Origin: the human T2T-CHM13v2.0 reference genome, Homo sapiens
Assembly: GCF_009914755.1 (NCBI RefSeq)
Contig: NC_060925.1
Reading direction: 5' to 3' (one strand)
DNA length: 64,000 nucleotides
Position numbers and translations under genes: made by a program. The notes below the pieces were generated by a model that searched no databases, was not told the DNA's origin, and saw only the letters and a list, made by a program, of their open reading frames with translations. This document shows positions 9,512-55,696 of this stretch, piece after piece; within the stretch, counting starts at the first letter, position 1, and the number at the start of each line of letters is the position of its first letter.

Positions 9512-12254
9512 GAAATGCCAAGAAAATGGATTTGAAATAATGATACTAAAGAAAATCACTGAGATACAAGAGAATGCTGACAAGGAATACAAAGAAATCA
9601 GAAAAACAAGTCAGGAAATGAATAAGAAATTCACCAACAAGATAAATGTCATAAAAAAGAACCAAACAGAAATCATGGAACAGAAGAATTCAATGAATAA
9701 AATAAAAAATACAACTAAGAGACTAAGAGCTTCAACAGTAGACTAGATCAAATAGAAAAAAGAATTTCAAAATTTGAAGACTGGTCTCTTGAAATAACTC
9801 AATCAGATTTTTTTTGAAAAAGAAAAAAAATGACAAAAGTTATGTGACATATGACACCCCAAAAAGCCAGTAAGTATTGAATTTTTGGTATTCTAAAGGT
9901 TAAGAGAAGGCCAAAGGCATAGAAAATCTGTTTAACAAATTAATAGCTGAAAACATCCCAGACAAGATATTTATACATATAGATAGAGGAAACTCAGAGA
10001 TTACCAAACAGAAACAACCTAAAAAAGTATTTTCCACAGTGCACTGTAGTCACACTGTCAAAGTCAAAGAGAGAATTCTACAAACAGCAGGAGAAAAACT
10101 TCTAGTTATGTATAAGGGAACCTCCCTCAGACTAACAGCAGATTTCTCAGCAGAAACATTACAGGCCAGGAGTAAATGGGATGATATATTTAAAGTATTG
10201 AAACAAAAAAAGAAAAAAACTATCATCCATGAATACTATACTTAGCAAACTTATCATTCATAAATGAAGGAGAAATAAAGTATTTCCCAAATAAGCAAAA
10301 ACTGAGGGAATTCATCACCACTACACCTGCCATTCTAGAAATGTGTAAGGGAATCCTACACCTGGAAATAAAAAGGTTATATCTACCATCATGAAAACAC
10401 ACAAAAGTATAAAATTCGCTGGTTGACCAAACACACAAACAAGGAAGAGAAAGGACTCAAATGTTACCATAACAGAAAACCTACAAACCACAATGATAAA
10501 AATTAAGAAAGAAAAGAACAAAGAAGAGTAAGACAACAAGAAAACAATTGACAAAATGACAGGAATAAGTCTTCACATATTAGTAATAGCCTTGAATGTA
10601 AATGATTTAAATTTTTCGGTTAAAAAATACAGACTGGCTGAATGGATTTTAAAATGACCCTATTATATGCTGCCTAAAGAAACTCACTTCACCTGTAAAG
10701 ACACATATATGCTGAAAGTAAAGAAATGGGAATAATATTCCATACAATTGGAAACCAAAAGCTAGCAGGAGTAGCTATACTTATATCACATAAAATAGCC
10801 TTTAAGTCAAAAATATTTAAAAAACACAAAGAACTCATTATATAATGAGAAAGGGGTTAATTCAACAAGAAGATATAACAATTCTGAATATATATGTATG
10901 CAACAGTGGAGCAAATATAAAGCAAAGTTATTAGGTCTAAAGGGAGAAATAGACTTCAATACAATAATAGTTAAGAATTTCTATACCCCACTCTCAGCAT
11001 TAGAGGGTTTATCTTGACAGAAAATTAACAAACACTGGATTTAAACTGCACTTTAGACCAAAGGGACCTTACAGTCATCCACAGAACATTTTATCCAACA
11101 GTTGCAAAATACACATTGTTTTAATTATCACATGAAACATTCTCCAGGATAGACCGTATGTTAGGGCACAACCAATTTTAAAAAGTCAAAATTATATCAA
11201 ATATTTTCTCAGACCACAATAGAATGAAACTAAAAATTAACAGAAAAGGGATCTTTGGAAACTGTATAAACACATGGAAATTAAGCAACATGACCCTGAC
11301 TGACCACTGGGTCAAGGAAAAAATTAAGAGATATCAAAAATGTCTTGAAAAAAATGAAAATGGAAACACAACATATCAAAACTTATGGGATAGAGCAAGA
11401 GCAGTGCTAAGAGGTAAGTTTATAGCAGTAACTGTCTACATCAAATAGTAGAATGATTTCAAATAAGCAGTCCAACAATGTACCTCAGGGGCTAGAAAAG
11501 TAAGAACAAACCAAACCCCAAATTAGTAGATGGAAATAAAGTATATAAAGATCAGAGCAGAGCTAAATAAAACAGAGACAATAAATATATATAAAGGATC
11601 AAAAAAAGAAAACGTGTTTTCTTGAAAAGATAAACTGCTAGATAGATTAATAAAAAGGACTCAAATAAACAAAATCAGAAATGAAAAAGGAGACATTATA
11701 ACTGATACCAAATAAATACAATAGATCATCAGAAATTATTATGAACAACTATACGCTAACAAACTGGAAAACCTGGATAAATTCCTAGGCACACACAACC
11801 AGTAAGATTGATTCAAATGACATAGAGAACTTGAACAAACCAATAATGAGCAAAAAGATTGAATCAATAATAAAAAGTTTCCTGACAAATAAAAGTCCAA
11901 TACCAAATGGCTTCATTGCCAAATTCTACCAAACTTATAAAAAAAGAACACCAATTGCCCTGAAACTATTCCAAAACATTGAAGAGGAAGGAATTCTCTT
12001 AAATCCACTCTACGAGGCCTGTATTACCATTATACTAAAAGTACACAAAGACACAACAACAAAAAAGAAAAGTACAGCCCAATATCCCGGATGAACACAA
12101 ATGGAAAAATTCTCAACAAAATAGTACCAAATTTAATTTAACAGCACATCAAAAAGATAATAAAACACGATCAAGAGAGATTTGTTCCAGGAATGCATGG
12201 ATAGTTTAATGTATGTAAATCAATAAATGTGACACGTCACATCAATAGAATGAA

Positions 12255-12630
<376 letters not shown>

Positions 12631-13010
12631 TTACAAGTCTATAGTAATCAAAGAAGCATGGAAGCATGCTATTGGTATAAAAACAAACAGGTAGACCAAT
12701 GGAACAGACATTGTCTAGTCAACCCAGAAATAAATCTATGTATTTACAACCAAAAGATTTTTGACAAAGGAATTAAAAAACATACACTGGGGAAAAAAAC
12801 ACCCTCTTCAACAAATGGTAGTAGAAAATGTGGACGTCCATATTCAGAAAAATAAAATTCAACCTCTATGTCTCAACATATACAAGAATAAACTAAAAAT
12901 GGATCAAAAATTTAAATGTAAGACCTGAAACTATAAAACTATTAGAAGAAAATATAGGGAAAACACTCCAAGACATTGGTCCAGAGAACGATTTTATGAC
13001 TACAACCTCA

Positions 13011-13346
<336 letters not shown>

Positions 13347-15069
13347 GAGGCAGGAAAATCAAAAAGCAGACAAATGAGAAATGAGACTATATTAAACCAA
13401 AAGCTTCTGCACAGCAAAGGAAACAATTGACAGAATGAAGAGAAAACTTATTGAATATGAGGAAATATTTCATCTGACAAGGGACTAATATCTAGAATAT
13501 ACAGGGAACTCAAACAACTCAACAGCAAATATTAATAATTCCATTTAAAAGTGATCAAGGACATTAATAGATATTTCTCAAAAGAAGACATACCAAGGGC
13601 CAATAGGCATATGTAAAAATGCTTAACATCACTAATAATCAGTGAATCCAAATCAAAGTCACATAAAGATATCTTACCCCAGTTAGAATGGCTCTTAATA
13701 AAAAGACAAAAAGTAACAGAAGCTAGCAAGGATGCAGAGAAAAGGTACTGTTGGTGGGAAGTAAATTAGTACAACCCGTATGGAAAACAGTATGGAGATT
13801 TCACCAAAAACTAAAAATAGAACTACCATACAATCATGCAATGCCACTACTTCGGTATATATCCAAAGGAAAAAAATATCAGTATAACAAAGGGATATCT
13901 GTACCCCCCATGTTAATTGCAGCAATATTCACAACAGTAAAGATATGGAATCAACCAAAGTGTCCATCAATAGATGAATGATAAAGAACATGTGGTTACA
14001 TACACGACAGAATACTATTCAGCCATAAAAAGAATGAAATTATGTAAGTTGCAGCAACATGGATGGAACTGGAGTGAAATAGGCCAGGCACAGAAAGACA
14101 AATATTGCATATTCTCACTCACATGTGGGAGCTAAAAAATGTTGGTCTAATGGAGGTAGAAGGAGAATGAAGATTACCAGAGGCTAAGAAAGGTATGTGT
14201 GGACAAACATGAAAACATCCAGTTGGATAGAAGGAATAAGTTCTACTGTTTGATAGCAGAGTAGAATGACTACAGCTAACATCAATGAATCACATATTTC
14301 AAAATAACTAGAAGACAGGACTTGAAATGCTCTGAACAAATAGAAATAATAAATACTCAAGGTAATGGATACCCTAAATACCCTGACTTGATTATTACAT
14401 ATTATATGCATGTAACAAATTACCACATGTACCCCATAAATCCTTATAAATATTATATTAATATGTCAATAAAAAATTCTTAAAAAGAATCATCATGAGG
14501 AAAAAAGCTTTCTATTTCCCTCATTTCCAGGACTTTTTCACAGGCAGGATGAGCAGAAAAGGAACCTGGTACCAACTGCTTCTAACAAAGCTATGCATAT
14601 AGACCTAATTCTACTTGCTTTTTCTCTTTAAAAAAAGGTCCATGCTCAGAATCACAATCATAGATGTCTCTTGGTTAGGAGGTTACTTGAGTCTTTAGGT
14701 AGCAGGGAGCATGCCATTTTTCTTTATACTCTTGGCATTCATTCAGGCTCCCAGGGGCAAGTTAGTGACCAGCAAATCCAGTAAAAACAGAAATCGTTAC
14801 CTCATAAAACACCAAGAGACTTTCCAAGCCTCAGGGAGAGTAACACCCCTGCCCTTTCTAATTCACAGACCACATTCCAAGTGCAAAATGGAATCATTTT
14901 TGTTTTCAAAGTGATGCTAATTTATTAGCCATGGTGGAAATGTTGACTATGGTAATTGACTTCAAACAGAATATCTTCAGTCCAGAGAGCTTGAGGCGAA
15001 AAGGGAAGTCAGTAGGGAGGTGAACAGAATCCAGTAGGGTTCTCCAGACCAAACTGACTGCACTCAGCA

Positions 15070-17919: not shown

Positions 17920-20270
<2,351 letters not shown>

Positions 20271-30546: not shown

Positions 30547-30755
30547 CTGTAACTGGTGCTGAACCAGCCCTGCCACAAAAATAATGAACACTTGCAAAAA
30601 ATACAGAACAACTGTTTTCACATATCGGGCAGACTATTGCCTAGACTTTGCCTGTAACTGGTGCTGAACCAGCCCTGCCACAAAAATAATGAACACTTGC
30701 AAAAAATACAGAACAACTGTTTTCACATATTGGGCAGACTATTGCCTAGACTTTG
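30547..30755. repeat. Tandem duplication, 105-bp period, two copies
   Basis: 30547-30650 and 30652-30755 are identical except one C/T at a CpG. Confidence 0.98.
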
Positions 30756-39419: not shown

Positions 39420-40745
39420 GGTTTAAAATTCTGTATTTCAAAGATTCAGATAAACCTCTGTCAAAATCCCAGCTGTTATTTTTGCAGAAATTGAAAAGTT
39501 AATCTTAAATTTCACATGGAAATGCAAAGGATCCAGAATAACCAAAACAAACTGGAAATAGAAACTAAGTTGGAGATTTTACACTTCTTGATTTCCAAAC
39601 TTACTACAAAGCTACAACAATCAAGGCAGTATGGTACCAACTTAAAGAGATCATATATAGATCAATAGAATAGAACTGAGAGTCCAGAAGTAAGCCCTCA
39701 TATTTATGGCATATTGCTTTTTAACAAAGGTGTTAAGACAATTCAATGTGGAAAGGATAGTTTTTTGAACAAATGATGCTTGGACAATTGGATATCTACA
39801 TTGCAAGAAATACATTTGTCCCTTTACCTCATACCATGCACAAAAATTAACTCAAAATAGCTCCTAGACCTAAATATATGAGCTAAAACTATAAACCTAC
39901 TTAAAGAAAATATAGGGGCACATTTATGTAATCCTGTGTAACAAATATTTCTTAGATATGGTATCTAAAATTTAATGAAGAAAAGATAAAAATAATACAT
40001 TGGACTTCATTAAAATTAGAAACTTTGCCCTTAATAAAACACTACCAAGACAATAAAAAAAGACAAGTCATGGATTACAAAAATATTTCTAAATTGTATA
40101 TCCAATAAGGAACTTGTATCCAGAATAAAATAATTCTTTTAACTCAATAAGAAAACAAACCAATTTTAAAATGTGAAGTGTTTCATAAACATTTCACCAA
40201 AGAAGCTATATAAATGGCAAATAAGCCCGTGAAAAGATGCCCAATAACATTGGGCATTAGGGAAAGAAAAATTAAAATCATAGTAAGATAACGTTTTGCA
40301 CCCACTAGAATGGTTGTAGTCATAAATAGCCAAAAACAAGTACTGATATGGATGTAGGGAAATTGGACATTGCAATGCCAAATGAAGCAGTCACATTGGA
40401 AAACAGTTTCAGTTTTTTTAAGTATTAAACACAGATTTACCATATGACCAAGCAATTCCACTCCTCAGCATGCAAGATAAATGAAAGCGTATATCCACCC
40501 AAAGACTTGTACATGAACAGCATTACTCATAATAGTCAACAGTAGAAATAATCCAACTAAGCAATGCATAAACAAGGTGTGGCATATCCATACAATGGAA
40601 CACTACTTGGCAATGTAAAGGAATAAAGTATTGAAATGTTCTACAACATGAATAAACCTCAAAATAAACCTATGGTAAGTGAAAGAAGCCAGAAAAAAAA
40701 GTCACATATTGGATAATTACATTTGTAGAAAATGACAAAAAATGA
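39420..40745 (+). mobile_element. Old L1MB/L1MC ORF2 3' portion
   Basis: tactacaaagctacaacaatcaaggcagtatggtac, aaaaattaactcaaaat, cacccactagaatgg, agcaattccactcct, catatccatacaatggaa. Confidence 0.88.
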
Positions 40746-40974
40746 GAGTTGAATTTTTTTTGGAGGCCACACTTTAGATACATTACAGCATTTACCTCCC
40801 TTCCACTGCCATCCATTCTCTTACTTATCAACTCAATACCTTTCTTATCAGCCCCCAAATCCCTATCTCCTCTATTTCAGTTCATCTCTCATAGCAATGA
40901 TTTTGCCAAAGAATTCCTCTATTGTGCAATCTCTTCTTTTATAATTGTGCTTTCATGATATATTAGTTAATAGC

Positions 40975-41490
40975 TGGAGGCTTGGAGCCTGAGATACATG
41001 AACTTGTATCCTAGATACTAACCAGATGTTTCTTAGAAAAATTATTTAACCTCTCAGAACTTAACCTATAAAATAGAGTTAATTTCATTTCCTTCGTAGA
41101 GCAGTGTAAAAATTAAACAAGCAATTACATTGAATGCTTATTGCATGCCCTGGTCCAATAAAATAGAGCTTTTAGTATTATTAGAATAAATGACTTGTCC
41201 AGGTTCACTGATAATAGTGAGGGGATTAGATCCCTTTGTATCATATTGTACTGTTCCATGCTGCCCGTTTTCTTTACCTGACACAACTTGCATTGTAGGC
41301 TAAATGAAAGGAGTGTTTAGCAAGAAAAGCCTAAACATAAGCATAAGCGAAGACTAGGCTCTAATATTGTCATCATAATTTGCTAGCTCTGTCACCCTGT
41401 TCAACATTCTGAGTCTTCAGATTTGTCTATCAAATTACTGACTGTGATTGTATGTAATAGAAATATTGTAGATGATTTATAAATGTTAGT
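40975..41490. mobile_element. Cluster of MIR fragments
   Basis: attatttaacctctcag, tgacttgtccaggttcac, ctagctctgtcaccctg. Confidence 0.55.
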
Positions 41491-42012
41491 TGCTTATGCA
41501 TTGCAGCTCAAATTACCCTATTTATCTGCAGGAGCCTATTTTTCCCTTTCTTATATACAGTGCCCTCATGCTCTCTGCCAGCCACCCTCCAATCCAAACC
41601 TACTTAAAAAAAGAAAAGCTGACATCAACAACATGGTGGAATAGGCAGCTCTTGACTCTCTTTCCACCCATGGATGCATCAAATAAACATTTATTCATGG
41701 ATCAATTCCCTCTGAGGGGAAGTCAGAGACCAGTTGAGAGACTCCTACCCTCTGGAGAAGTCAGAAACATTCACATTAAACAGGCAGAAAATGCTGAGGC
41801 ACATTCAGGCATGGACCTCCCTCTAGGCACCATGCCATAAGATTGGGAAAGAAATCCCCAACACACAACATCTCCCTGTGGAGAGAAGGAGTTGGACCTC
41901 ACATAGACTGCCCTAACTCTAAAGTTCCCATGATTTGGCCCTTAATTCACCAACTCTGGGAATGCAGGGAAGGGATTACTCACAAGTGAGTTTTTCTAGT
42001 GGTGTTTTATTA

Positions 42013-42372
<360 letters not shown>

Positions 42373-42928
42373 TCATTGAACTTTTGATACCATATCTAAG
42401 AAATATTTGTTACACAGGATTACATAAATGTGCCCCACATTTTTTCTTTATACAAGCTGCAAGTACTTCCAGGGGCTTTTTCTTCCAGGAACAGTGCAGA
42501 GAGAGAGCTATAAAAACTTCAACCCCCTATTTCTCCCTGGAAAGGACATAGTGTTCCAGTGGCCACTTGGTGACCTGGGTTCTAACTAACTTGTGTAGGC
42601 GAGTAGGAGGAGCAGACAAGTATTAACTTGCTGGCAAGCTGAGAAGATGGGCACTTCTTGAGCCTTCTCTGACTCCTCCCAGTGACGATTCCAGGTCTCT
42701 TAATCCTTGGAAGAAGTTTTTTCACAGATAGAGCACCCTAACTTTTATAGCTTCTATCAAGGGACAGCATCCTAAACCTCCTAGCCCTGGAAGCAGAGGA
42801 CAATTAGAAATGTGACTCTATTTAGACGACAGAAAAAAACTGACCATTTTATGTGGATGCGTAAGCACTTTCAGAGGCTTCATTCCCCAGGAGTAGTGCA
42901 GAAAAGGGGCTTTAAAAATGTACCTTCC

Positions 42929-43821
42929 GGGAGGAGCCAAGATGGCCGAACAGGAACAGCTCCGGTCTACAGCTCCCAGTGTGAGCGAGGCAGAAGACAG
43001 GTGATTTCTGCATTTCCATCTGAGGTACCAGGTTCATCTCACTAGGGAGTGCCAGAGAGTGGGCTCAGGTCAGTGGGTGCGCGCACTGTGCGCGAGCCGA
43101 AGCAGGGCGAGGCATTGCCTCACTTGGGAAGCGCAAGGGGTCAGGGAGTTCCCTTTCCAAGTCAAAGAAAGGGGTGACAGACAGCACCTGGAAAATCGGG
43201 TCACTCCCACCCGAATACTGCGCTTCTCCAACGGGCTTAAAAAACGGCGCACCACGAGATTATCTCCGGCACCTGGCTTGGAGGGTCCTACACCCACGGA
43301 GTCTCGCTGATTGCTAGCAGGGCAGTCTGAGATCAAACTGCAAGGCGGCAGCGAGGCTGGGGGAGGGGCGCCCGCCATTGCCCAGGATTGCTTAGGTAAA
43401 CAAAGCAGCCTGGAAGCTCGAACTGGGTGGAGCCCACCACAGCTCAAGGAGGCCTGCCTGCCTCTGTAGGCTCCACCTCTGGGGGCAGGGCACAGACAAA
43501 CAAAAAGACAGCAGTAACTTCTGCAGACTTAAATGTCCCTGTCTGACAGCTTTGAAGAGAGCAGTGGTTCTCCCAGCACGCAGCTGGAGATCTGAGAACT
43601 GGCAGACTGCCTCCTCAAGTGGGTCCCTGACCCCTGACCACCGAGCAGCCTAACTGGGAGGCACCCCCAGCAGGGGCACACTGACACCTCACACGGCAGG
43701 GTATTCCAACTGAAGGTCCTGTCTGTTAGAAGGAAAACTAACAAACAGAAAGGACATCCACACCAAAAACCCATCTGTACATCACCATCATCAAAGATCA
43801 AAAGTAGATAAAACCACAAAG
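42929..43821. promoter_or_regulatory. L1 5'UTR: sense and antisense Pol II promoter, CpG-rich, YY1 site intact
   Basis: caagatggccg at the 5' end; many CpGs retained against a CpG-depleted background. Confidence 0.85.
43070..43378 (-). CDS. L1 ORF0-like antisense ORF (102 aa, open)
   Basis: MAGAPPPASLPPCSLISDCPASNQRDSVGVGPSKPG... matches the primate ORF0 N-terminus; ATG at 43378. Confidence 0.7.
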   Translation of the reverse strand: MAGAPPPASLPPCSLISDCPASNQRDSVGVGPSKPGAGDNLVVRRFLSPLEKRSIRVGVTRFSRCCLSPLSLTWKGNSLTPCASQVRQCLALLRLAHSARTH

Positions 43822-44838
43822 ATGGGGAAAAAACAGAACAGAAAAACTGGAAACTGTAAAACGCAGAGCGCCTCTCCTCCTCCAAAGGAACGCAGCTCCT
43901 CACCAGCGATGGAACAAAGCTGGATGGAGAATGACTTTGATGAGCTGAGAGAAGAAGGCTTCAGATGATCAAATTACTCTGAGCTATGGGAGGACATTCA
44001 AACCAAAGGCAAAGAAGTTGAAAACTTTGAAAAAAATTTAGAAGAATGTATAACTAGAATAACCAATACAGAGAAGTGCTTAAAGGAGCTGATGGAGCTG
44101 AAAACCAAGGCTCGAGAACTACGTGAAGAATACAGAAGCCTCAGGAGCCGATGCGATCAACTGGAAGAAAGGGTATCAGCAATGGAAGATGAAATGAATG
44201 AAATGAAGCGAGAAGGGAAGTTTAGAGAAAAAAGAATAAAAAGAAATGAGCAAAGCCTCCAAGATATATGGGACTATGTGAAAAGAGCAAATCTACGTCT
44301 GATTGGTGTACCTGAAAGTGATGGGGAGAATGGAACCAAGTTGGAAAACACACTGCAGGATATTATCCAGGAGAACTTCCCCAATCTAGCAAGGCAGGCC
44401 AACGTTCAGATTCAGGAAATACAGAGAACGCCACAAAGATACTCCTCGAGAAGAGCAACTCCAAGACACATAATTGTCAGATTCACCAAAGTTGAAATGA
44501 AGGAATAAATGTTAACGGCAGCCAGAGAGAAAGGTCGGGTTACCCTCAAAGGGAATCCCATCAGACTAACAGCGGATCTCTCGGCACAAACCCTACAAGC
44601 CAGAAGAGAGTGGGGGCCAATATTCAACATTCTTAAAGAAAAGAATTTTCAACCCAGAATTTCATATCCAGCCAAACTAAGCTTCGTAAGCGAAGGAGAA
44701 ATAAAATACTTTACAGACAAGCAAATGCTGAGAGATTTTGTCACCACCATCCCTGCCCTAAAAGAGCTCCTGAAGGAAGCGCTAAATATGGAAAGGAACA
44801 ACCGGTACCAGCCGCTGCAAAATCATGCCAAAATGTAA
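43822..44838 (+). pseudogene. L1 ORF1p (338 codons) with two nonsense mutations
   Basis: MGKKQNRK...QPLQNHAKM; TGA at 43966-43968 (codon 49) and TAA at 44506-44508 (codon 229). Confidence 0.95.
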
Positions 44839-44901
44839 AGACCATCGAGACTAGGAAGAAACTGCATCAACTAACACGCAAAATAACAAGCTAACATCAT
44901 A

Positions 44902-48723
<3,822 letters not shown>

Positions 48724-49433
48724 ACAATGAGATCACATGGACACAGGAAGGGGAATATCACACTCTGGGGACTGCTGTGGGGGTGGGGGGAGGGTGGAGG
48801 GATAGCATTGGGAGATATACCTAATGCTAGATGACGAGTTAGTGGGTGCAGCACACCAGCATGTCACATGTATACATATGTAACCTGCACAATGTGCACA
48901 TGTACCCTAAAACTTAAAAGTATAATAATAATAATTAAAAAAAAGAATTATCAACTCAAAAAAAAATGTACCTTCCTGTTTCTCCTTAGAAGGGTTTATA
49001 CCACACATCAAGTGCCTCAATTTTACAGCTACCTCACAAAAGATTCCATGTTAAACTTCTTGGCTTTGGGAGCAGAAGGGACTAGACCTATGTGAGTCTC
49101 TCTAGACTACAGAAAAAAAGAGGTAATATTAAATGTGGTGCAAACATTTCCAGAGGCTACACCCCATTGGAGCAATGCAGTAAAGGGGCACAGACATTCA
49201 GCTCCCATTTTCTCTTTGGAAAGGGCTTTCCAGTGACTACTTGCTGGTCTGGCTTCTAACAAACTTGCATCAGTAGCTAAAAGAGCAAACAAACAATAGC
49301 CCTCCAGCAGCCAAAGCCAGAGCTTGCCTCTTCATGAGCCTTTCCTCCAGCTCAGCCCAGTGATAAATCCAGGTATGCCCATTCTTCCTGGAAGGAATTT
49401 GGTTCAGAGCCACAACTTCCATAAGCCCCAAGC

Positions 49434-51494
<2,061 letters not shown>

Positions 51495-54400
51495 TGGGAG
51501 GAGGAATAGTAAAAGCAAAAAGTTTGTGTTTGCAATCAAGGCTAAGTTGTTATTACATTAAAATAGCCTATTGTAAGTATAAGATGTTTTTTGTAAGCAT
51601 CAGGGTAACCATAAAGAAAAATCCTATAATAGAAATACAGAAGACAAAAAGAGAAGATACAAAACATACCACTACAGAAAGCCATCAAACACAAAATAAA
51701 GTACTAGAGGAAGAAAGAAGCACAGGGTGTACAAAACAATCAGAAAACAACTAACAAAATGGTACAAATAAGTTCTTACATATCCATAACTACTTTGAAT
51801 GTAAATATATTAATTCTCCAATCAAAAGGCATAGAGTGGCTAAATGGATATTTTTAAGACCATAACAAGACCCAATATGTGCTGCCTACAAGAGACTCAC
51901 TTCACATTAAATGACACTCAGACCAAAAGTGAAGAGATAGAAAAAATAACTCCATGCAGATGTAAACAAATAGAGACAGGGGTAGCTATACTCTTTTAAG
52001 GCAAAGTAGATTTTAGGTCAAAAATTGTCAAAAGAAACAAGATCATTATATAGTCAATAAAGAGGCCAATTCATCAAGATGATATGACAACTGTAAATAT
52101 GTATATGCACCCAATATCAGAGCATCTACATATGTAAAGCAAACATTAAGAGGTCTGAAGGGAGACAACACTGCAACACAATAATAGTAGAAGATGCAAT
52201 ATCCCACTTTCAACATTGGGCAGATCACACAGAAAATTGATTTTTTTAAATGATTGGACTTGAACTACACTTTAGACCAAATAGACCTAACAGACATGTA
52301 CAGAACATTTCTCTCTACAGCAACAGAATATATATGTATTACATTTATATTCTGTATATCCATTATATCTGTATATACATTATAATGTATATATAAATGT
52401 ATAAATGTACATTTGTTGCTGTTGAGTGGAATATACATTGTTTTCAAGTGCATACAAAATATTCTCCAACATAGATACTATGCTAGACCACAAAACAAGT
52501 CTTAACAAATTTTAAAATATCAAAATCTTATCAAGCATCTTTTCTAATCACAGAAGTGTGAAACTAGAAATAAATAACAGGAGAAAATCATAGAAAATAA
52601 AAAAGTTGTAGAAATTAAACAATATAATCCTGAACAACTATTGAGTCAAAGAAGAAATTTTTTTAAAAAAAATTAAAATATCAAGACAAAAAATGGAAAC
52701 ACGAGTTATGAAAACCTTGGAGATAAATAAAGCACTTAGAGGAGGGAAGTTTATAGCAATAAATGCCTACATCAACAAAGAAGAAAGATCTCAAATAAAC
52801 AACCTAACATTACAGTTCAAGAAATTAGAAGAACCAACTAAGCCCAAAGTTAGCACAAGAAAGGAAATAACAAGGACCACAGCAGAAATAAATGAAATAG
52901 AGACTAGAAAAACAATAGAAAAGATAAACTAACGTAAGCGTTGGATTTTTGGAAAACTAAACAAAACTAACGAAATCTTAGTTAGACCAAGAACAAAGAG
53001 CGAAGAATCAAATTAAGAGAGTCAGAAATGAAAGAGGAAACATTACAAATGGTAACACAAAAATACAAATGATCACAAAAGACTGCTAAGAATAACTATA
53101 CACCAACAAATTGCACAACCTAGAGAAATGAATAAATTTCTAAAATATATAACTTACCAATACTAAATTATAAAGAAATTTGAAATCTAAACCGATCAAG
53201 AACAAGTAAGGAAATTGAATTAGTAACTAAGTCTCTCATACAACAGGCTCAATTCCAGCAGCTATCTGGAAAAGATAAAGTGAAATTATGTGTTTGCTGA
53301 CAACATGATCTTGTACACAGAAAATCCTGAAGACCCCACCAAAAAATTGTTGAAACTGATGAACAAATTGAATAAAGTTGCAGGGTGCAGTTACAGACTG
53401 CAAAATCAAAAATCAGTAGCATTACTATACACTAACAATGAACTGTCTGAAAATAAATTCAGAAAATTTCTCTCATAATAGTATCAAAAAATAAAATGTT
53501 TGAGTAAATTTAACCAAGGCATCAAAATATCTGTATACTGAAAACTGTAAAACATTGACAAAAGAAACTAAAGATTACACAAATAAATGTAAAGATATTT
53601 CATGTTGATGGACTGAAGAATTAATTCTGTTAAAATAACCATGCTACACAACGTGATCTACCAATTCAATGCAATCCCTATCAAAATTCAAATGTCATTC
53701 TTTGCAGAAATAGAAAAAAAATTCTAAAATTTATATGGAACCACAAAAGGACCTAAGAAGCTAAGAAGGTCTTGACCAAATAGAGCAAAGCTTGAAGCAA
53801 CAGACTACTGGATAAAAATACTTTACAAAGTTATAGAAATCAGAACAGCATGATACTACTATTAAAAACAGACACATCAACCAATGGAGTAGTACGGAGT
53901 GTTCAGAAATAAACCCACACATCTACAGCCAATTGATTTTCAACAAGGGTGCCTAGAATACACAATGGGTAAAGAATAGTCTCTTCAATAAATGTTGGTG
54001 GGAAAACTGAATATTTTCATACAGAGATTTAAAATAGACCCTTGTCTCACTCCTTATACAATTATCAGCTCAGAATGGATTAAATACTTGAACATAAGGT
54101 CTGCAATCAGAAAAATTATAGGAGAAAGCTATATGACATTGATCTGGGCAGTGATTTCTTGGATATGACCTCAAAAGCGTGGGCAACAAAAACAAGAATA
54201 GACAAACGGGATTTCATCAAAATAAAATGCTTCTGCACAGTAAACAATTAATAGAGTGAAGAGACAACTCACCAATTGGGAGAAAATATTTGCAAATCAT
54301 ACATTCGATAAGAGGCTAATATCTTAAATATACAAAGAACTCAAACTACAAAATAACAAGAAAACAAACAACCCTATTCAAAAGGGCGAAGGACTTGAAT

Positions 54401-55696
54401 AGATCTTTCTAAAAGAAGACATATAAATGACCAACAGACAAACAAAAAAATTGCTAAACATCTTCAATCATCAGAGAAATGCAAATTAAAACCACAATGA
54501 GAGATTGACCATCATTAAAAAGACGAAAGATGACAAGTCTTGGCAAAGATGTGAAGAAAAGGGAACTCTTATACACTGCTGATAGTATTGTAAATTAGTA
54601 CAGCCATTTTGGAAAACAACATAAAGGGTCTGCAAAAAATTAAAAATAAAATTCCAACATGATCCAACCATCCCACTACTGAGTATATACCCAAAGGAAT
54701 TGAAATAAGTATGTAGAAGAGTTACCTACTCTCCTATGTTTAATGTAGCATTATTCACAATGGCCCAGCTATGGAAATAACCTAAATGTCCATCAATGGA
54801 TGAATGGATTTTTTTAAGTGTGGTATACGTACACAATGTGATACTATTCAGCCTTTTAAAAACCCAGGAAATTCTTTCATTTTTGACAATATGGATAAGC
54901 CTAGAACACATTATGTTACATGAAATAAGCCATGTACAAAGAGACAAATACTGTATGATCTCACGTACATGTGGTATCTAAAAATGTTGAACTTACAGAG
55001 GTAGAGTGTAGAATGATGGTGGTTACTAGAGATTGGGATTGAGGGAGGAGTGGATGGGAAAGGGGAGACATTGATCAACATCAGTGAGATAAGAGGAATA
55101 AGTTCTGATATTCTATTGCACAGCACAGTGACTATAGTTAACAATAACGTATTGTATATTTCAAAACAGCAAAAAGAAAAGATTTTAAATGCTCTCACCA
55201 CAAAGAAATTATAAATATTTGAGGTGATGGATATGCTAATTAGCCTAATTTTATCATTCCACAGTGTATAAATGTATTGAAACATCCCATTGTAGCCCAT
55301 AATTATATACAATTCTTATTTGTCAATTAAAAATACAATAAAACTTTAAGAAAAAAATAGTGATTGAAGAGTAATTTAGAGTAAAGATGACATTTACTTG
55401 GTTCATGGTCCATTGATCCCATCTCCACCCATCACATCATCCTTTCCTTGTGAGCAAGAATATGACTTCAAAGCCTTCCCCATCCAGTGTTCCAGCTGTC
55501 ATTATCAATTGACCAGAGCCGAGATACAAGCTGAAACCTATTTGGCTATCTCAGGGTTGGAGTTGCACCCACTCCAAGTGAAATATATTTTTAAGACATT
55601 TCACAAACCATGTGTAAAGGGAGGAGGGGTTACCACCAGTGGTAGGGAGGGATAGTGTAAAAGTTACTAAGAGGATTTTTGAAACAGTGAACTTAC

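What the first reader, a model, noticed from the sequence alone, without database searches (positions are those of the whole stretch)
39902..53270. Four locally templated rearrangements concentrated in one old L1: possible fossil of a complex template-switching event
Seen in sequence: the 41.6-55.4 kb L1MA carries (i) an inverted copy of flank DNA from about 2 kb upstream, (ii) a 193-bp direct copy of its own 5'UTR in the inter-ORF region, (iii) a fold-back insertion in the endonuclease region and (iv) a 29-bp 5'UTR-derived filler at a ~670-bp ORF2 deletion. None has a poly-A tail or a clean TSD. Pieces (ii) and (iv) come from the same 5'UTR patch. Established: templated insertions with microhomology are hallmarks of polymerase-theta end joining and MMBIR/FoSTeS. 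Inference: either one multi-switch germline repair event, or a locus prone to repeated switching. Copy-to-source divergence (about 8-14% by eye) looks lower than expected if ORF2p template jumps had made them at L1MA insertion time, but that alternative needs testing. Standard repeat masking would hide all of this.
Basis: partly seen in the sequence, partly recalled or inferred. Interest (0 to 1): 0.8.

Follow-up and report, generated by a model that had tools for sequence, protein, structure and literature searches.

The report
Four templated repair scars in one L1
One ancient, dead L1 element on human chromosome 1 carries four small rearrangements, each copied from DNA at most about 2 kb away; they are real fossils of a known kind of error-prone DNA copying, but it cannot yet be told whether one accident or several made them.

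Summary
All four features are at the stated places and are private to this L1 copy. None of 71 control contigs from other family copies has an alignment running through any junction. No other genomic hit spans a junction.

- (i) A ~147-nt inverted copy of 39902-40045, later split by an Alu with its own target-site duplication.
- (ii) A 186-nt direct copy of the element's 5'UTR (49434-49626), inserted after ORF1.
- (iii) A 93-nt fold-back in the endonuclease region.
- (iv) A ~660-nt ORF2 deletion closed by a 24-29-nt filler matching the same 5'UTR patch.

Junctions show 1-7 nt of microhomology and no poly-A. Copies (i) and (ii) differ from their sources by 8-10%, against about 27% between family copies, so they arose long after insertion.

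This fits microhomology-primed template switching or templated break repair, a known mutation class. In ~243 kb of controls I found only three comparable events, so the clustering is unusual locally. A few such clusters are still expected genome-wide by chance.

One event versus several is unresolved. One weak hint places (iv) before (ii). Primate orthologues would decide and are not available here. Interest is moderate.

The parts
39457..40724 (+). Older L1 ORF2/3' fragment that contains the source of (i)
   Evidence: Aligns to ORF2 3' part of the young L1 (39505-39916 ~ 47428-47840; D2, D8); covered by other genomic L1 copies L043-L052
39902..40045 (+). Source (template) of the inverted copy (i)
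   Evidence: (I6, I15); contiguous in 10 outgroup copies, so native here
41617..55345 (+). Old full-length L1 (reader: L1MA; subfamily not verifiable here), host of all four insertion sites; 3' end approximate
   Evidence: Colinear alignments with other genomic copies from 5'UTR to ORF2 3' part; ends read
41999..42027 (-). (i) inverted copy, left part (before the nested Alu)
   Evidence: Matches 40019-40045 inverted, 22 of 27 (I15)
42028..42333 (+). Alu (AluS-like by recalled diagnostic features) with poly-A and second copy of its target-site duplication AAAAGTTCCT; nested inside copy (i), so younger than (i)
   Evidence: TSD read
42334..42450 (-). (i) inverted copy, right part
   Evidence: 90.5% to 39902-40026 inverted; 92.4% over 105 nt, E 2e-38
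42931..48975 (+). Later insertion: full-length young L1 (L1PA type) with 15-nt TSD AAAAATGTACCTTCC; not part of the events but separates their sites today
49434..49626 (+). Source of (ii): patch of the element's own 5'UTR; 49527-49555 is also one candidate template of the filler (iv)
   Evidence: (D5, D11, D12)
50100..50415 (-). Later or earlier Alu insertion (minus strand) with 16-nt TSD ACAAACTGAGAATTTC, between source and copy of (ii); relative age unknown
51305..51490 (+). (ii) 186-nt direct templated insertion just after ORF1 (homology to source runs 51301-51494 because of AAA and AATG microhomology)
   Evidence: 17 control contigs abut 51304|51491; 26 of 26 copies with both flanks lack it; junction alignment
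52307..52432 (.). Imperfect AT-rich palindrome created by (iii)
   Evidence: I1-I3; self inverted hit; z -5.1
52336..52428 (+). (iii) 93-nt fold-back insertion in the ORF2 endonuclease region, flanked by 7-nt direct duplication GAATATA; inverted copy of 52309-52340 interrupted by ~57 nt of nested tandem and palindromic TA-rich copies
   Evidence: 24 control contigs abut across it
53244..53267 (+). (iv) templated filler closing a ~660-nt ORF2 deletion; preceded by 7-nt microhomology CATACAA (53237-53243)
   Evidence: 15 control contigs carry 610-1013 extra nt here; (D11)
51395..51423 (+). Second candidate template of the filler (iv), inside the (ii) copy
   Evidence: 25 of 29 identical, exact 15-mer 51409-51423 = 53253-53267

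Best explanation
The four features are scars of error-prone DNA synthesis that copied nearby DNA into this already dead L1 in the germline of a primate ancestor. Each time, a free 3' end annealed through a few bases of microhomology to sequence lying 0-2 kb behind it. That 3' end came from a stalled or collapsed fork, or from a resected double-strand break. It was extended for 24-190 nt and then returned to the original template.

The products are an inverted insertion with a 22-nt loss (i), a clean direct insertion (ii), a snap-back hairpin with nested re-copying (iii), and a 660-nt deletion with filler (iv). They are neutral fossils with no function.

Steps that are shown: the features are private to this copy, they have local templates, the junctions have microhomology and no poly-A, and (i) and (ii) are much younger than the L1.

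Steps that are inferred: the enzymology (MMBIR-like restart versus polymerase-theta-type joining), the date, and the number of episodes. The date is roughly 20-45 Myr, from about 4-5% divergence per lineage and recalled neutral rates. On the number of episodes, I think two or more, possibly with some sites linked, is somewhat more likely than one event for all four (about 0.2).

The confidence given here is for the general statement: post-insertion, locally templated, microhomology-primed copying. It is not for any particular number of episodes.
For: Private to this copy:
- 0 of 71 control contigs has an alignment running through any of the four sites.
- 2, 17, 24 and 15 contigs respectively bridge sites (i) to (iv) without the insert, or with the deleted DNA present.
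- No other genomic hit among the scored candidates spans a junction.

Local templates:
- (i) 90.5% over 126 nt.
- (ii) 91.75% over 194 nt.
- (iv) exact 15-mer within 25 of 29 matches, local E 2e-4.
- (iii) palindrome, z -5.1.

Microhomology, read from the alignments:
- (ii) AAA and AATG.
- (iv) CATACAA on the left, at most 1 nt on the right.
- (i) up to TAG on the left, (C)TTTA on the right.
- (iii) a 7-nt flanking duplication.

Timing:
- In (ii), 27 sites are shared-derived against only 6 and 8 private changes in 193 nt. This copy is 66-78% identical to other family copies.
- The source of (i) lies outside the host L1.
- An Alu with its own TSD sits inside copy (i).

Completeness: a coverage scan finds no other private segment of 15 nt or more in the well-covered part of the element.

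Literature:
- Germline templated insertions with 2-12 bp microhomology, including multi-template ones, are described and attributed to an MMBIR-like process (PMC8421209, passages read).
- Templated inserts are a signature of polymerase theta end joining (PMC4490562, passages read).
- Short inverted template switches create hairpins (PMC5453318, passages read).
Against: - Templates 1.8-2 kb away and tracts of 147-186 nt are longer-range than the definitions used in the papers I read. Those are a template within 100 bp (PMC8421209) and 'in close proximity' to the break (PMC4490562).
- No enzyme can be assigned from sequence alone.
- Four such events in about 6.7 kb of old L1 is far above the control density. 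Controls gave 3 locally templated private segments in 243 kb: L049, L079 and L051. Poisson P(>=3) is 2e-4 to 8e-3 and P(>=4) is 4e-6 to 8e-4 for lambda 0.1-0.4. This argues against fully independent events unless the locus is fragile.
- Evidence that (iv) is older than (ii) rests on one clear site and one inferred site only.
- The divergence of the nested Alu from a pooled majority is 7.7% at non-CpG sites. This exceeds the ~4.8% per lineage of (i), although nesting requires the Alu to be younger. My divergence clocks are therefore crude.
Confidence: 0.85

Rival explanations
1. One complex event. A single error-prone restart tract (BIR/MMBIR or FoSTeS type) ran left to right through about 7 kb of this L1 and made four backward excursions.
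For: - Clustering is well above the control rate.
- The divergences of (i), (ii), (iv) and the arms of (iii) are indistinguishable: 9.5%, 7.8%, 13.8% and 13%, with overlapping intervals.
- All four templates lie on the same (left) side of their insertion points.
- The jump-back distances are similar: 1.95 kb, 1.87 kb, and 1.84 kb if (iv) used the inter-ORF copy.
- (ii) and (iv) use the same patch.
- In fission yeast, restarted forks show frequent template switching at least 12.4 kb from the restart site (PMC9701231, passages read).
Against: - The filler of (iv) carries C at positions 6 and 10, where both copies of (ii) share T. The family has C at position 10 in 10 of 16 copies. So the filler seems to have been copied before the source acquired those changes.
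- If (iv) belonged to the same tract, its template would have to be the 5'UTR original, 3.7 kb back, because the fresh copy has no complementary strand yet. The distance regularity is then lost.
- Intervening kilobases are in normal order with no copy-number change.
- Genome-wide, roughly 2-360 chance clusters of four are expected under independence, for lambda 0.1-0.4. This window was picked out post hoc.
Confidence: 0.2
2. A locally fragile site. The AT-rich palindrome made by (iii), or another local feature, repeatedly stalled forks or broke. The neighbouring scars (i), (ii) and (iv) would then be separate repair events over millions of years.
For: - (iii) forms a strong hairpin (z -5.1). 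It lies 0.85-1.0 kb from (ii) and (iv).
- There is a hint that the events are not simultaneous.
- A fixed replication direction at the locus would explain why all the templates lie upstream.
- From recall, AT-rich palindromes are known break-prone sites in humans. I did not check this.
Against: - The palindrome is short and imperfect today.
- The order of (iii) relative to the other events cannot be established. Its arms differ at 7 of 54 positions, with an interval of 5-25%.
- (i) lies several kb away from the palindrome.
- I ran no test of fragility.
Confidence: 0.2
3. Fragment capture rather than polymerase switching. Pieces of nearby DNA released during resection or replication stress were ligated into double-strand breaks by end joining.
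For: - The inserts occur in either orientation, are 147-186 nt long, and come from 2 kb away.
- (i) is accompanied by loss of ~22 nt at the site.
Against: - There is microhomology at both ends of (ii), and the insertion is exact with no loss or gain at the site.
- There is 7-nt microhomology at the left junction of (iv).
- The snap-back structure of (iii) cannot arise by capture.
Confidence: 0.1
4. The features were made at retrotransposition, by ORF2p template jumps or twin priming, or were inherited from the source element.
For: Only for (iv):
- The filler differs from an inferred early state of the patch at about 2-3 of 29 positions.
- If it had been copied at insertion time, 4 or fewer differences from the local copy would have probability 0.06. 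That is not rejected outright.
Against: - No other genomic copy shares any of the junctions.
- (i) copies DNA from outside the element.
- (i) and (ii) differ from their sources by 8-10%, against about 27% between family copies.
Confidence: 0.05
5. Chance similarity or assembly artefact.
For: - The filler is short. The TA-rich core of (iii) is low-complexity, where inverted matches arise easily.
Against: - E-values are 2e-38 to 9e-70 for (i) and (ii), and 2e-4 for (iv).
- 0 of 200 shuffles fold as well as (iii).
- The 8-10% divergence between copies is not what a mis-assembly gives.
Confidence: 0.02

Closest known systems
Microhomology-mediated templated insertions (MMB-TI; MMBIR/FoSTeS class), Osia et al. 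2021, PMC8421209 (passages read)
   Same: [quoted passage not shown]
- The paper reports germline events, including multi-template ones. It states that localised events that disrupt no gene may accumulate over evolution.
   Different: - Templates there are defined as lying within about 100 bp. Here three of the four are 1.8-2 kb away.
- The copied tracts here reach 147-186 nt.
- Here the four sites are separated by kilobases of unrearranged sequence rather than forming one compound junction.
Polymerase theta-mediated end joining with templated inserts, van Schendel et al. 2015, PMC4490562 (passages read)
   Same: - (iv) is a deletion closed by a short insert copied from elsewhere on the same molecule, with microhomology.
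- (iii) looks like iterated snap-back synthesis.
   Different: - The inserts described there match sequence in close proximity to the break, and the deletions are small. Here the deletion is ~660 nt and the template is 1.8 kb or more away.
- Dependence on POLQ cannot be tested from sequence.
Short-range template switch mutations (four-point model), Loytynoja and Goldman 2017, PMC5453318 (passages read)
   Same: (iii) is an inverted copy of the adjoining sequence. It creates a hairpin and returns upstream of the point of departure, which gives the 7-nt duplication.
   Different: - Those events were searched for within 100-200 bp and are typically short.
- (iii) carries about 57 nt of extra nested copies.
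- (i) is inverted but comes from 2 kb away.
Template switching during recombination-dependent replication restart in fission yeast, PMC9701231 (passages read)
   Same: An error-prone elongation phase with repeated switching between homeologous or microhomologous sequences, kilobases from the restart site. This would suit a one-tract model.
   Different: That is an experimental yeast system scored with repeat reporters. Nothing shows that such a tract occurred here.
L1 5' inversion by twin priming (recalled: Ostertag and Kazazian 2001, not read here)
   Same: An inverted L1-derived segment inside an L1. A textbook-looking example lies in the same window at 18097-20185.
   Different: - Twin priming acts at insertion and uses the element's own RNA.
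- (i) copies a different, older L1 fragment 2 kb upstream and is much younger than its host.

Membership tests
MMBIR/FoSTeS-type templated insertion | Inserted sequence is a copy of DNA found nearby on the same chromosome | tested here: met
   (i) 90.5% over 126 nt, (ii) 91.75% over 194 nt, (iv) 25 of 29 with an exact 15-mer, (iii) inverted copy of its left flank
MMBIR/FoSTeS-type templated insertion | Microhomology of about 2-12 bp at switch junctions (PMC8421209) | tested here: met
   Read from the alignments: 3 and 4 nt at (ii); 7 nt and at most 1 nt at (iv); up to 3 nt and 4-5 nt at (i). Exact lengths are blurred by later substitutions.
MMBIR/FoSTeS-type templated insertion | Template within about 100 bp of the insertion (operational definition in PMC8421209) | tested here: not met
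   Met for (iii) only. (i), (ii) and (iv) have templates 1.84-1.95 kb away, or 3.7 kb for the alternative template of (iv).
MMBIR/FoSTeS-type templated insertion | Several switches belong to one event | not testable with these tools
   Needs primate orthologues. Divergences are compatible with one event. One weak hint points the other way.
Polymerase theta end joining (TMEJ) | Deletion plus short insert identical to sequence close to the break | tested here: inconclusive
   (iv) has a ~660-nt deletion and a 24-29-nt insert, but its template is 1.84 kb or more away
Polymerase theta end joining (TMEJ) | Dependence on POLQ | not testable with these tools
   Requires genetics
Short-range template switch (four-point model) | Inverted copy of adjacent sequence producing a hairpin or inverted repeat | tested here: met
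   (iii). (i) is inverted but lies outside the short range.
Structure made at L1 retrotransposition or inherited from the source element | Same junction present in other copies of the family | tested here: not met
   0 of 71 control contigs run through any site. No spanning hit among the scored candidates. The genome search scores only the best candidates, so rare siblings could be missed.
Structure made at L1 retrotransposition or inherited from the source element | Copy and source as diverged from each other as two lineages that separated at insertion | tested here: not met
   (i) 9.5% and (ii) 7.8%, against about 22-34% between this copy and other family copies. Inconclusive for (iv).
Retrotransposed insert (target-primed reverse transcription) | Poly-A tail and target-site duplication flanking the insert | tested here: not met
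   No poly-A at any of the four sites. Only (iii) has a 7-nt flanking duplication. By contrast, the nested Alu, the second Alu and the young L1 all show poly-A and 10-16-nt TSDs.

The most novel reading that the evidence does not exclude
All four scars are the track of one error-prone restart or repair episode that moved left to right through about 7 kb in an anthropoid-ancestor germline. The similar jump-back lengths (1.84-1.95 kb), with the far ends of the copied tracts 1.7-2.1 kb from the break points, would then record a physical length. That length could be the extent of end resection, or of the displaced nascent strand, at the moment of switching. If so, old transposable elements, read against their family copies as an ancestral reference, could give the geometry of germline template switching over deep time.
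Probability: 0.15. Interest if true: 0.6.

Novelty: new member of a known kind. Interest (0 to 1): 0.35.

Why it matters
The locus has no evident function. Its value is as a well-resolved natural record of microhomology-primed templated mutagenesis in the primate germline.

It shows four products of different shape side by side: an inverted insertion, a direct insertion, a snap-back hairpin, and a deletion with filler. Their templates are farther away than the usual detection tools look.

It also shows a usable method. Other copies of an old repeat family serve as an outgroup, which exposes private templated events that repeat masking hides.

If the four prove to be one event, or if the ~1.9-kb jump length recurs elsewhere, this would bear on how complex rearrangements start. 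If not, it is an ordinary accumulation of known mutation types.

Tried and rejected
- I asked for 39 control regions of 10 kb, to give full context around other family copies. I did not send a smaller request. I used the 76 loci already held instead, merged into 71 contigs totalling 243 kb. These windows are only 3.1-6.1 kb long. The effective control length for pairs 1.9-2.4 kb apart is therefore only about 62-97 kb.
- Dating the nested Alu against a pooled majority of 55 Alu copies gave 7.7% non-CpG divergence. That exceeds the per-lineage divergence of the copy it sits in. The measure is inflated by mixed subfamilies, so I did not use it for ordering.
- Ordering (iii) by the divergence of its arms failed: 7 differences in 54 positions, with an interval of 5-25%.
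- Polarising the filler against family copies gave only one clear and one inferred informative site.
- The category counts for (i) include boundary columns outside the homology. I used my own count from the printed alignment instead: 14 substitutions and 2 indels in about 147 nt.
- No tool holds primate genomes or a repeat-consensus library. The branch test and the subfamily label could not be checked.
- A private 75-nt stretch at 55021-55095 has no local template and lies where family coverage is thin. I did not count it.
It was re-sent with the value added.
Full report
**Setting**

The window is human (T2T-CHM13 chr1), and the window's own genome can be searched. Self-comparison and comparison with other genomic copies give the following anatomy on the + strand:
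- An older L1 ORF2/3' fragment at about 39457-40724.
- About 0.9 kb with no match in my set.
- An old full-length L1 from 41617 to about 55345. I cannot check the subfamily without a repeat library.

The old L1 is interrupted by three later insertions:
- An Alu at 42028-42327, with TSD AAAAGTTCCT.
- A full-length young L1 at 42931-48960, with TSD AAAAATGTACCTTCC. Its ORF2 is broken into several frames.
- A minus-strand Alu at 50100-50399, with TSD ACAAACTGAGAATTTC.

Without these insertions, the stretch that holds the four features is about 6.7 kb.

**Are the four features real and private?**

I fetched 76 loci from other copies of the two L1 families. I merged them into 71 contigs totalling 243 kb and aligned them to the window. 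In one search:
- No contig has an alignment running through any of the four sites.
- At (i), 2 contigs bridge with 55-70 nt of their own sequence.
- At (ii), 17 contigs bridge, eleven of them with a gap of -1 to +10 nt.
- At (iii), 24 contigs bridge, mostly with a 4-13-nt overlap.
- At (iv), 15 contigs carry 610-1013 extra nucleotides.

A separate test found 26 of 26 copies with both flanks of (ii) lacking the insert.

Searches of the whole genome with each junction returned no other hit that spans a junction. Only the best candidates are scored, so rare siblings could be missed.

A coverage scan shows that these are the only private segments of 15 nt or more in the well-covered part of the element. 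A 75-nt stretch at 55021-55095 lies where coverage is thin and has no local template.

**Anatomy of each site**

*(i) Inverted copy.*
- The inverted copy of 39902-40045 is about 147 nt, not 112-126 nt.
- It runs 41999-42027, is interrupted by the Alu and its duplicated target site, and resumes at 42334-42450. The Alu is therefore younger than the copy.
- The source is native sequence of the older L1 fragment. It is contiguous in 10 outgroup copies.
- Elsewhere in the genome the best matches are 70-86%, the higher values only over shorter stretches, against 90% locally.
- At the insertion site about 22 nt of family 5'UTR sequence is missing.
- Junctions show up to TAG on the left and (C)TTTA on the right.

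*(ii) Direct copy.*
- Family copies read ...CATAA|AATGTGG... at the site.
- The window has the 186-nt copy of 49434-49626 between them, with AAA and AATG shared between source and recipient. Nothing is lost or duplicated.

*(iii) Fold-back.*
- The L1 sequence ...ACAGAATATA is followed by 93 nt and then resumes at GAATATACATT, giving a 7-nt flanking duplication.
- The insert begins and ends as the reverse complement of the left flank 52309-52340.
- It is split by about 57 nt of TA-rich nested tandem and palindromic copies.
- The region folds far better than shuffles (z -5.1) and hits itself on the opposite strand.
- It lies inside the endonuclease domain, judged from the neighbouring young L1 (with D10).

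*(iv) Deletion with filler.*
- The L1 runs to about 53243 and resumes at 53268.
- The 24 nt between, together with the 7-nt CATACAA overlap, match the 5'UTR patch. The match is 25 of 29 to the inter-ORF copy and 23 of 29 to the original.

None of the four has a poly-A tail.

**Timing**

- Copy and source differ by 9.5% at (i). This is my count from the alignment printed: 14 substitutions in about 147 nt. BLAST gives 90.5% over 126 nt.
- Copy and source differ by 7.8% at (ii): 15 substitutions in 193 nt.
- This L1 is only 66-78% identical to other family copies.
- Polarised against 16 family copies, (ii) shows 27 shared-derived sites and 6 and 8 private changes. The shared-derived sites include lineage differences present at insertion. 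The duplication therefore happened late, at very roughly a quarter of the element's age.
- ORF2p template jumps at insertion are excluded for (i) and (ii). In addition, (i) copies DNA from outside the element.
- With recalled neutral rates of about 1-2e-9 per site per year, about 4-5% per lineage means roughly 20-45 Myr.
- The nested Alu looks AluS-like by recalled diagnostic features, which favours the older part of that range.
- My attempt to date the Alus against a pooled majority was not usable.

**One event or several?**

Points for a single event or burst:
- The divergences of (i), (ii), (iv) and the arms of (iii) are statistically indistinguishable.
- All templates lie on the left of their insertion points.
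- The jump-back distances are alike: 1.95, 1.87 and 1.84 kb. This is post hoc. The 1.84-kb figure holds only if (iv) used the inter-ORF copy. The 1.87-kb figure includes an Alu of unknown relative age.
- (ii) and (iv) use the same patch.
- Controls contain only three locally templated private segments in 243 kb: L049 (240 nt, inverted), L079 (42-55 nt) and L051 (17 nt). There is no dispersed one in the remaining ~50 kb of the window.
- With an expected 0.1-0.4 events per 6.7 kb, P(>=3) is 2e-4 to 8e-3 and P(>=4) is 4e-6 to 8e-4.

Points against:
- The same arithmetic predicts about 2-360 such four-fold clusters genome-wide by chance. This locus was noticed post hoc.
- The time resolution is poor.
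- The filler has C at position 10, where both copies of (ii) have T and 10 of 16 family copies have C. It also has C at position 6, an inferred old CpG, where both copies have T. This suggests the filler was copied before (ii) formed. It rests on one clear site and one inferred site. Low-fidelity synthesis or back-mutation could mimic it.
- In a strict one-tract model, the fresh inter-ORF copy has no complementary strand to serve as template for (iv).

I therefore put about 0.2 on one event for all four. The rest is split between partly linked events and separate events at a fragile spot. The hairpin of (iii) is a candidate cause of such fragility.

**Mechanism and comparison with what is known**

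The shapes match known products of microhomology-primed template switching:
- Germline templated insertions attributed to an MMBIR-like process, including multi-template ones, with average microhomology of 3.7 bp (PMC8421209, passages read).
- Templated inserts of polymerase theta end joining (PMC4490562, passages read).
- Short inverted template switches that create hairpins (PMC5453318, passages read).

The differences here are the long range of three templates (1.8-2 kb, against within about 100 bp in the definitions I read), the length of two tracts (147 and 186 nt), and the spread of the four sites over kilobases of otherwise colinear sequence.

Which polymerase or pathway acted is inference only.

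**Verdict**

- This is a new example of a known kind of mutation, neutral and old.
- It would become more interesting only if primate orthologues show a single origin, or if a genome-wide scan shows the same ~1.9-kb jump length.

**Limits of this work**

No primate genomes and no repeat-consensus library were available. 

Noticed in passing
window 18097-20185: A young L1 fragment with a 5' inversion of the twin-priming type. 18097-19435 (minus) matches the full-length young L1 at 46851-48186 (97.4%). 19433-20185 (plus) matches 48215-48966 (94.8%). About 29 nt of L1 sequence is missing at the turn.
   Followed up: no
window 30547-30755: A nearly perfect tandem duplication, 104 nt twice at 99% identity, not shared with any control contig.
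   Followed up: no
window 42650-43762: The two RefSeq 'enhancer' features cover a repeat unit of the old L1 5'UTR plus the 5'UTR of the full-length young L1 inserted at 42931. They are not related to the four rearrangements.
   Followed up: partly
window 42447-42930 and 48976-49400; loci L003, L008, L010: The 5'UTR of this old L1 family is internally repetitive, and the number of units differs among genomic copies. L008 aligns twice to 42447-42915. L003 and L010 skip most of it.
   Followed up: no
L049 454-692 and 1535-1774: A control locus on another chromosome holds a private 240-nt inverted repeat at 93% identity, with arms 843 nt apart and no match in other contigs. It is another fossil of the same class.
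   Followed up: no
window 41998->40045, 51304->49437, 53243->51402: The three long-range template jumps all go back 1.84-1.95 kb on the + strand. This is post hoc. It depends on which template (iv) used and on the relative age of the Alu at 50100-50415.
   Followed up: partly
window 10060-14477: A second old L1 of a different subfamily, carrying two Alus (12255-12557 and 13026-13346). It lacks all four features.
   Followed up: no
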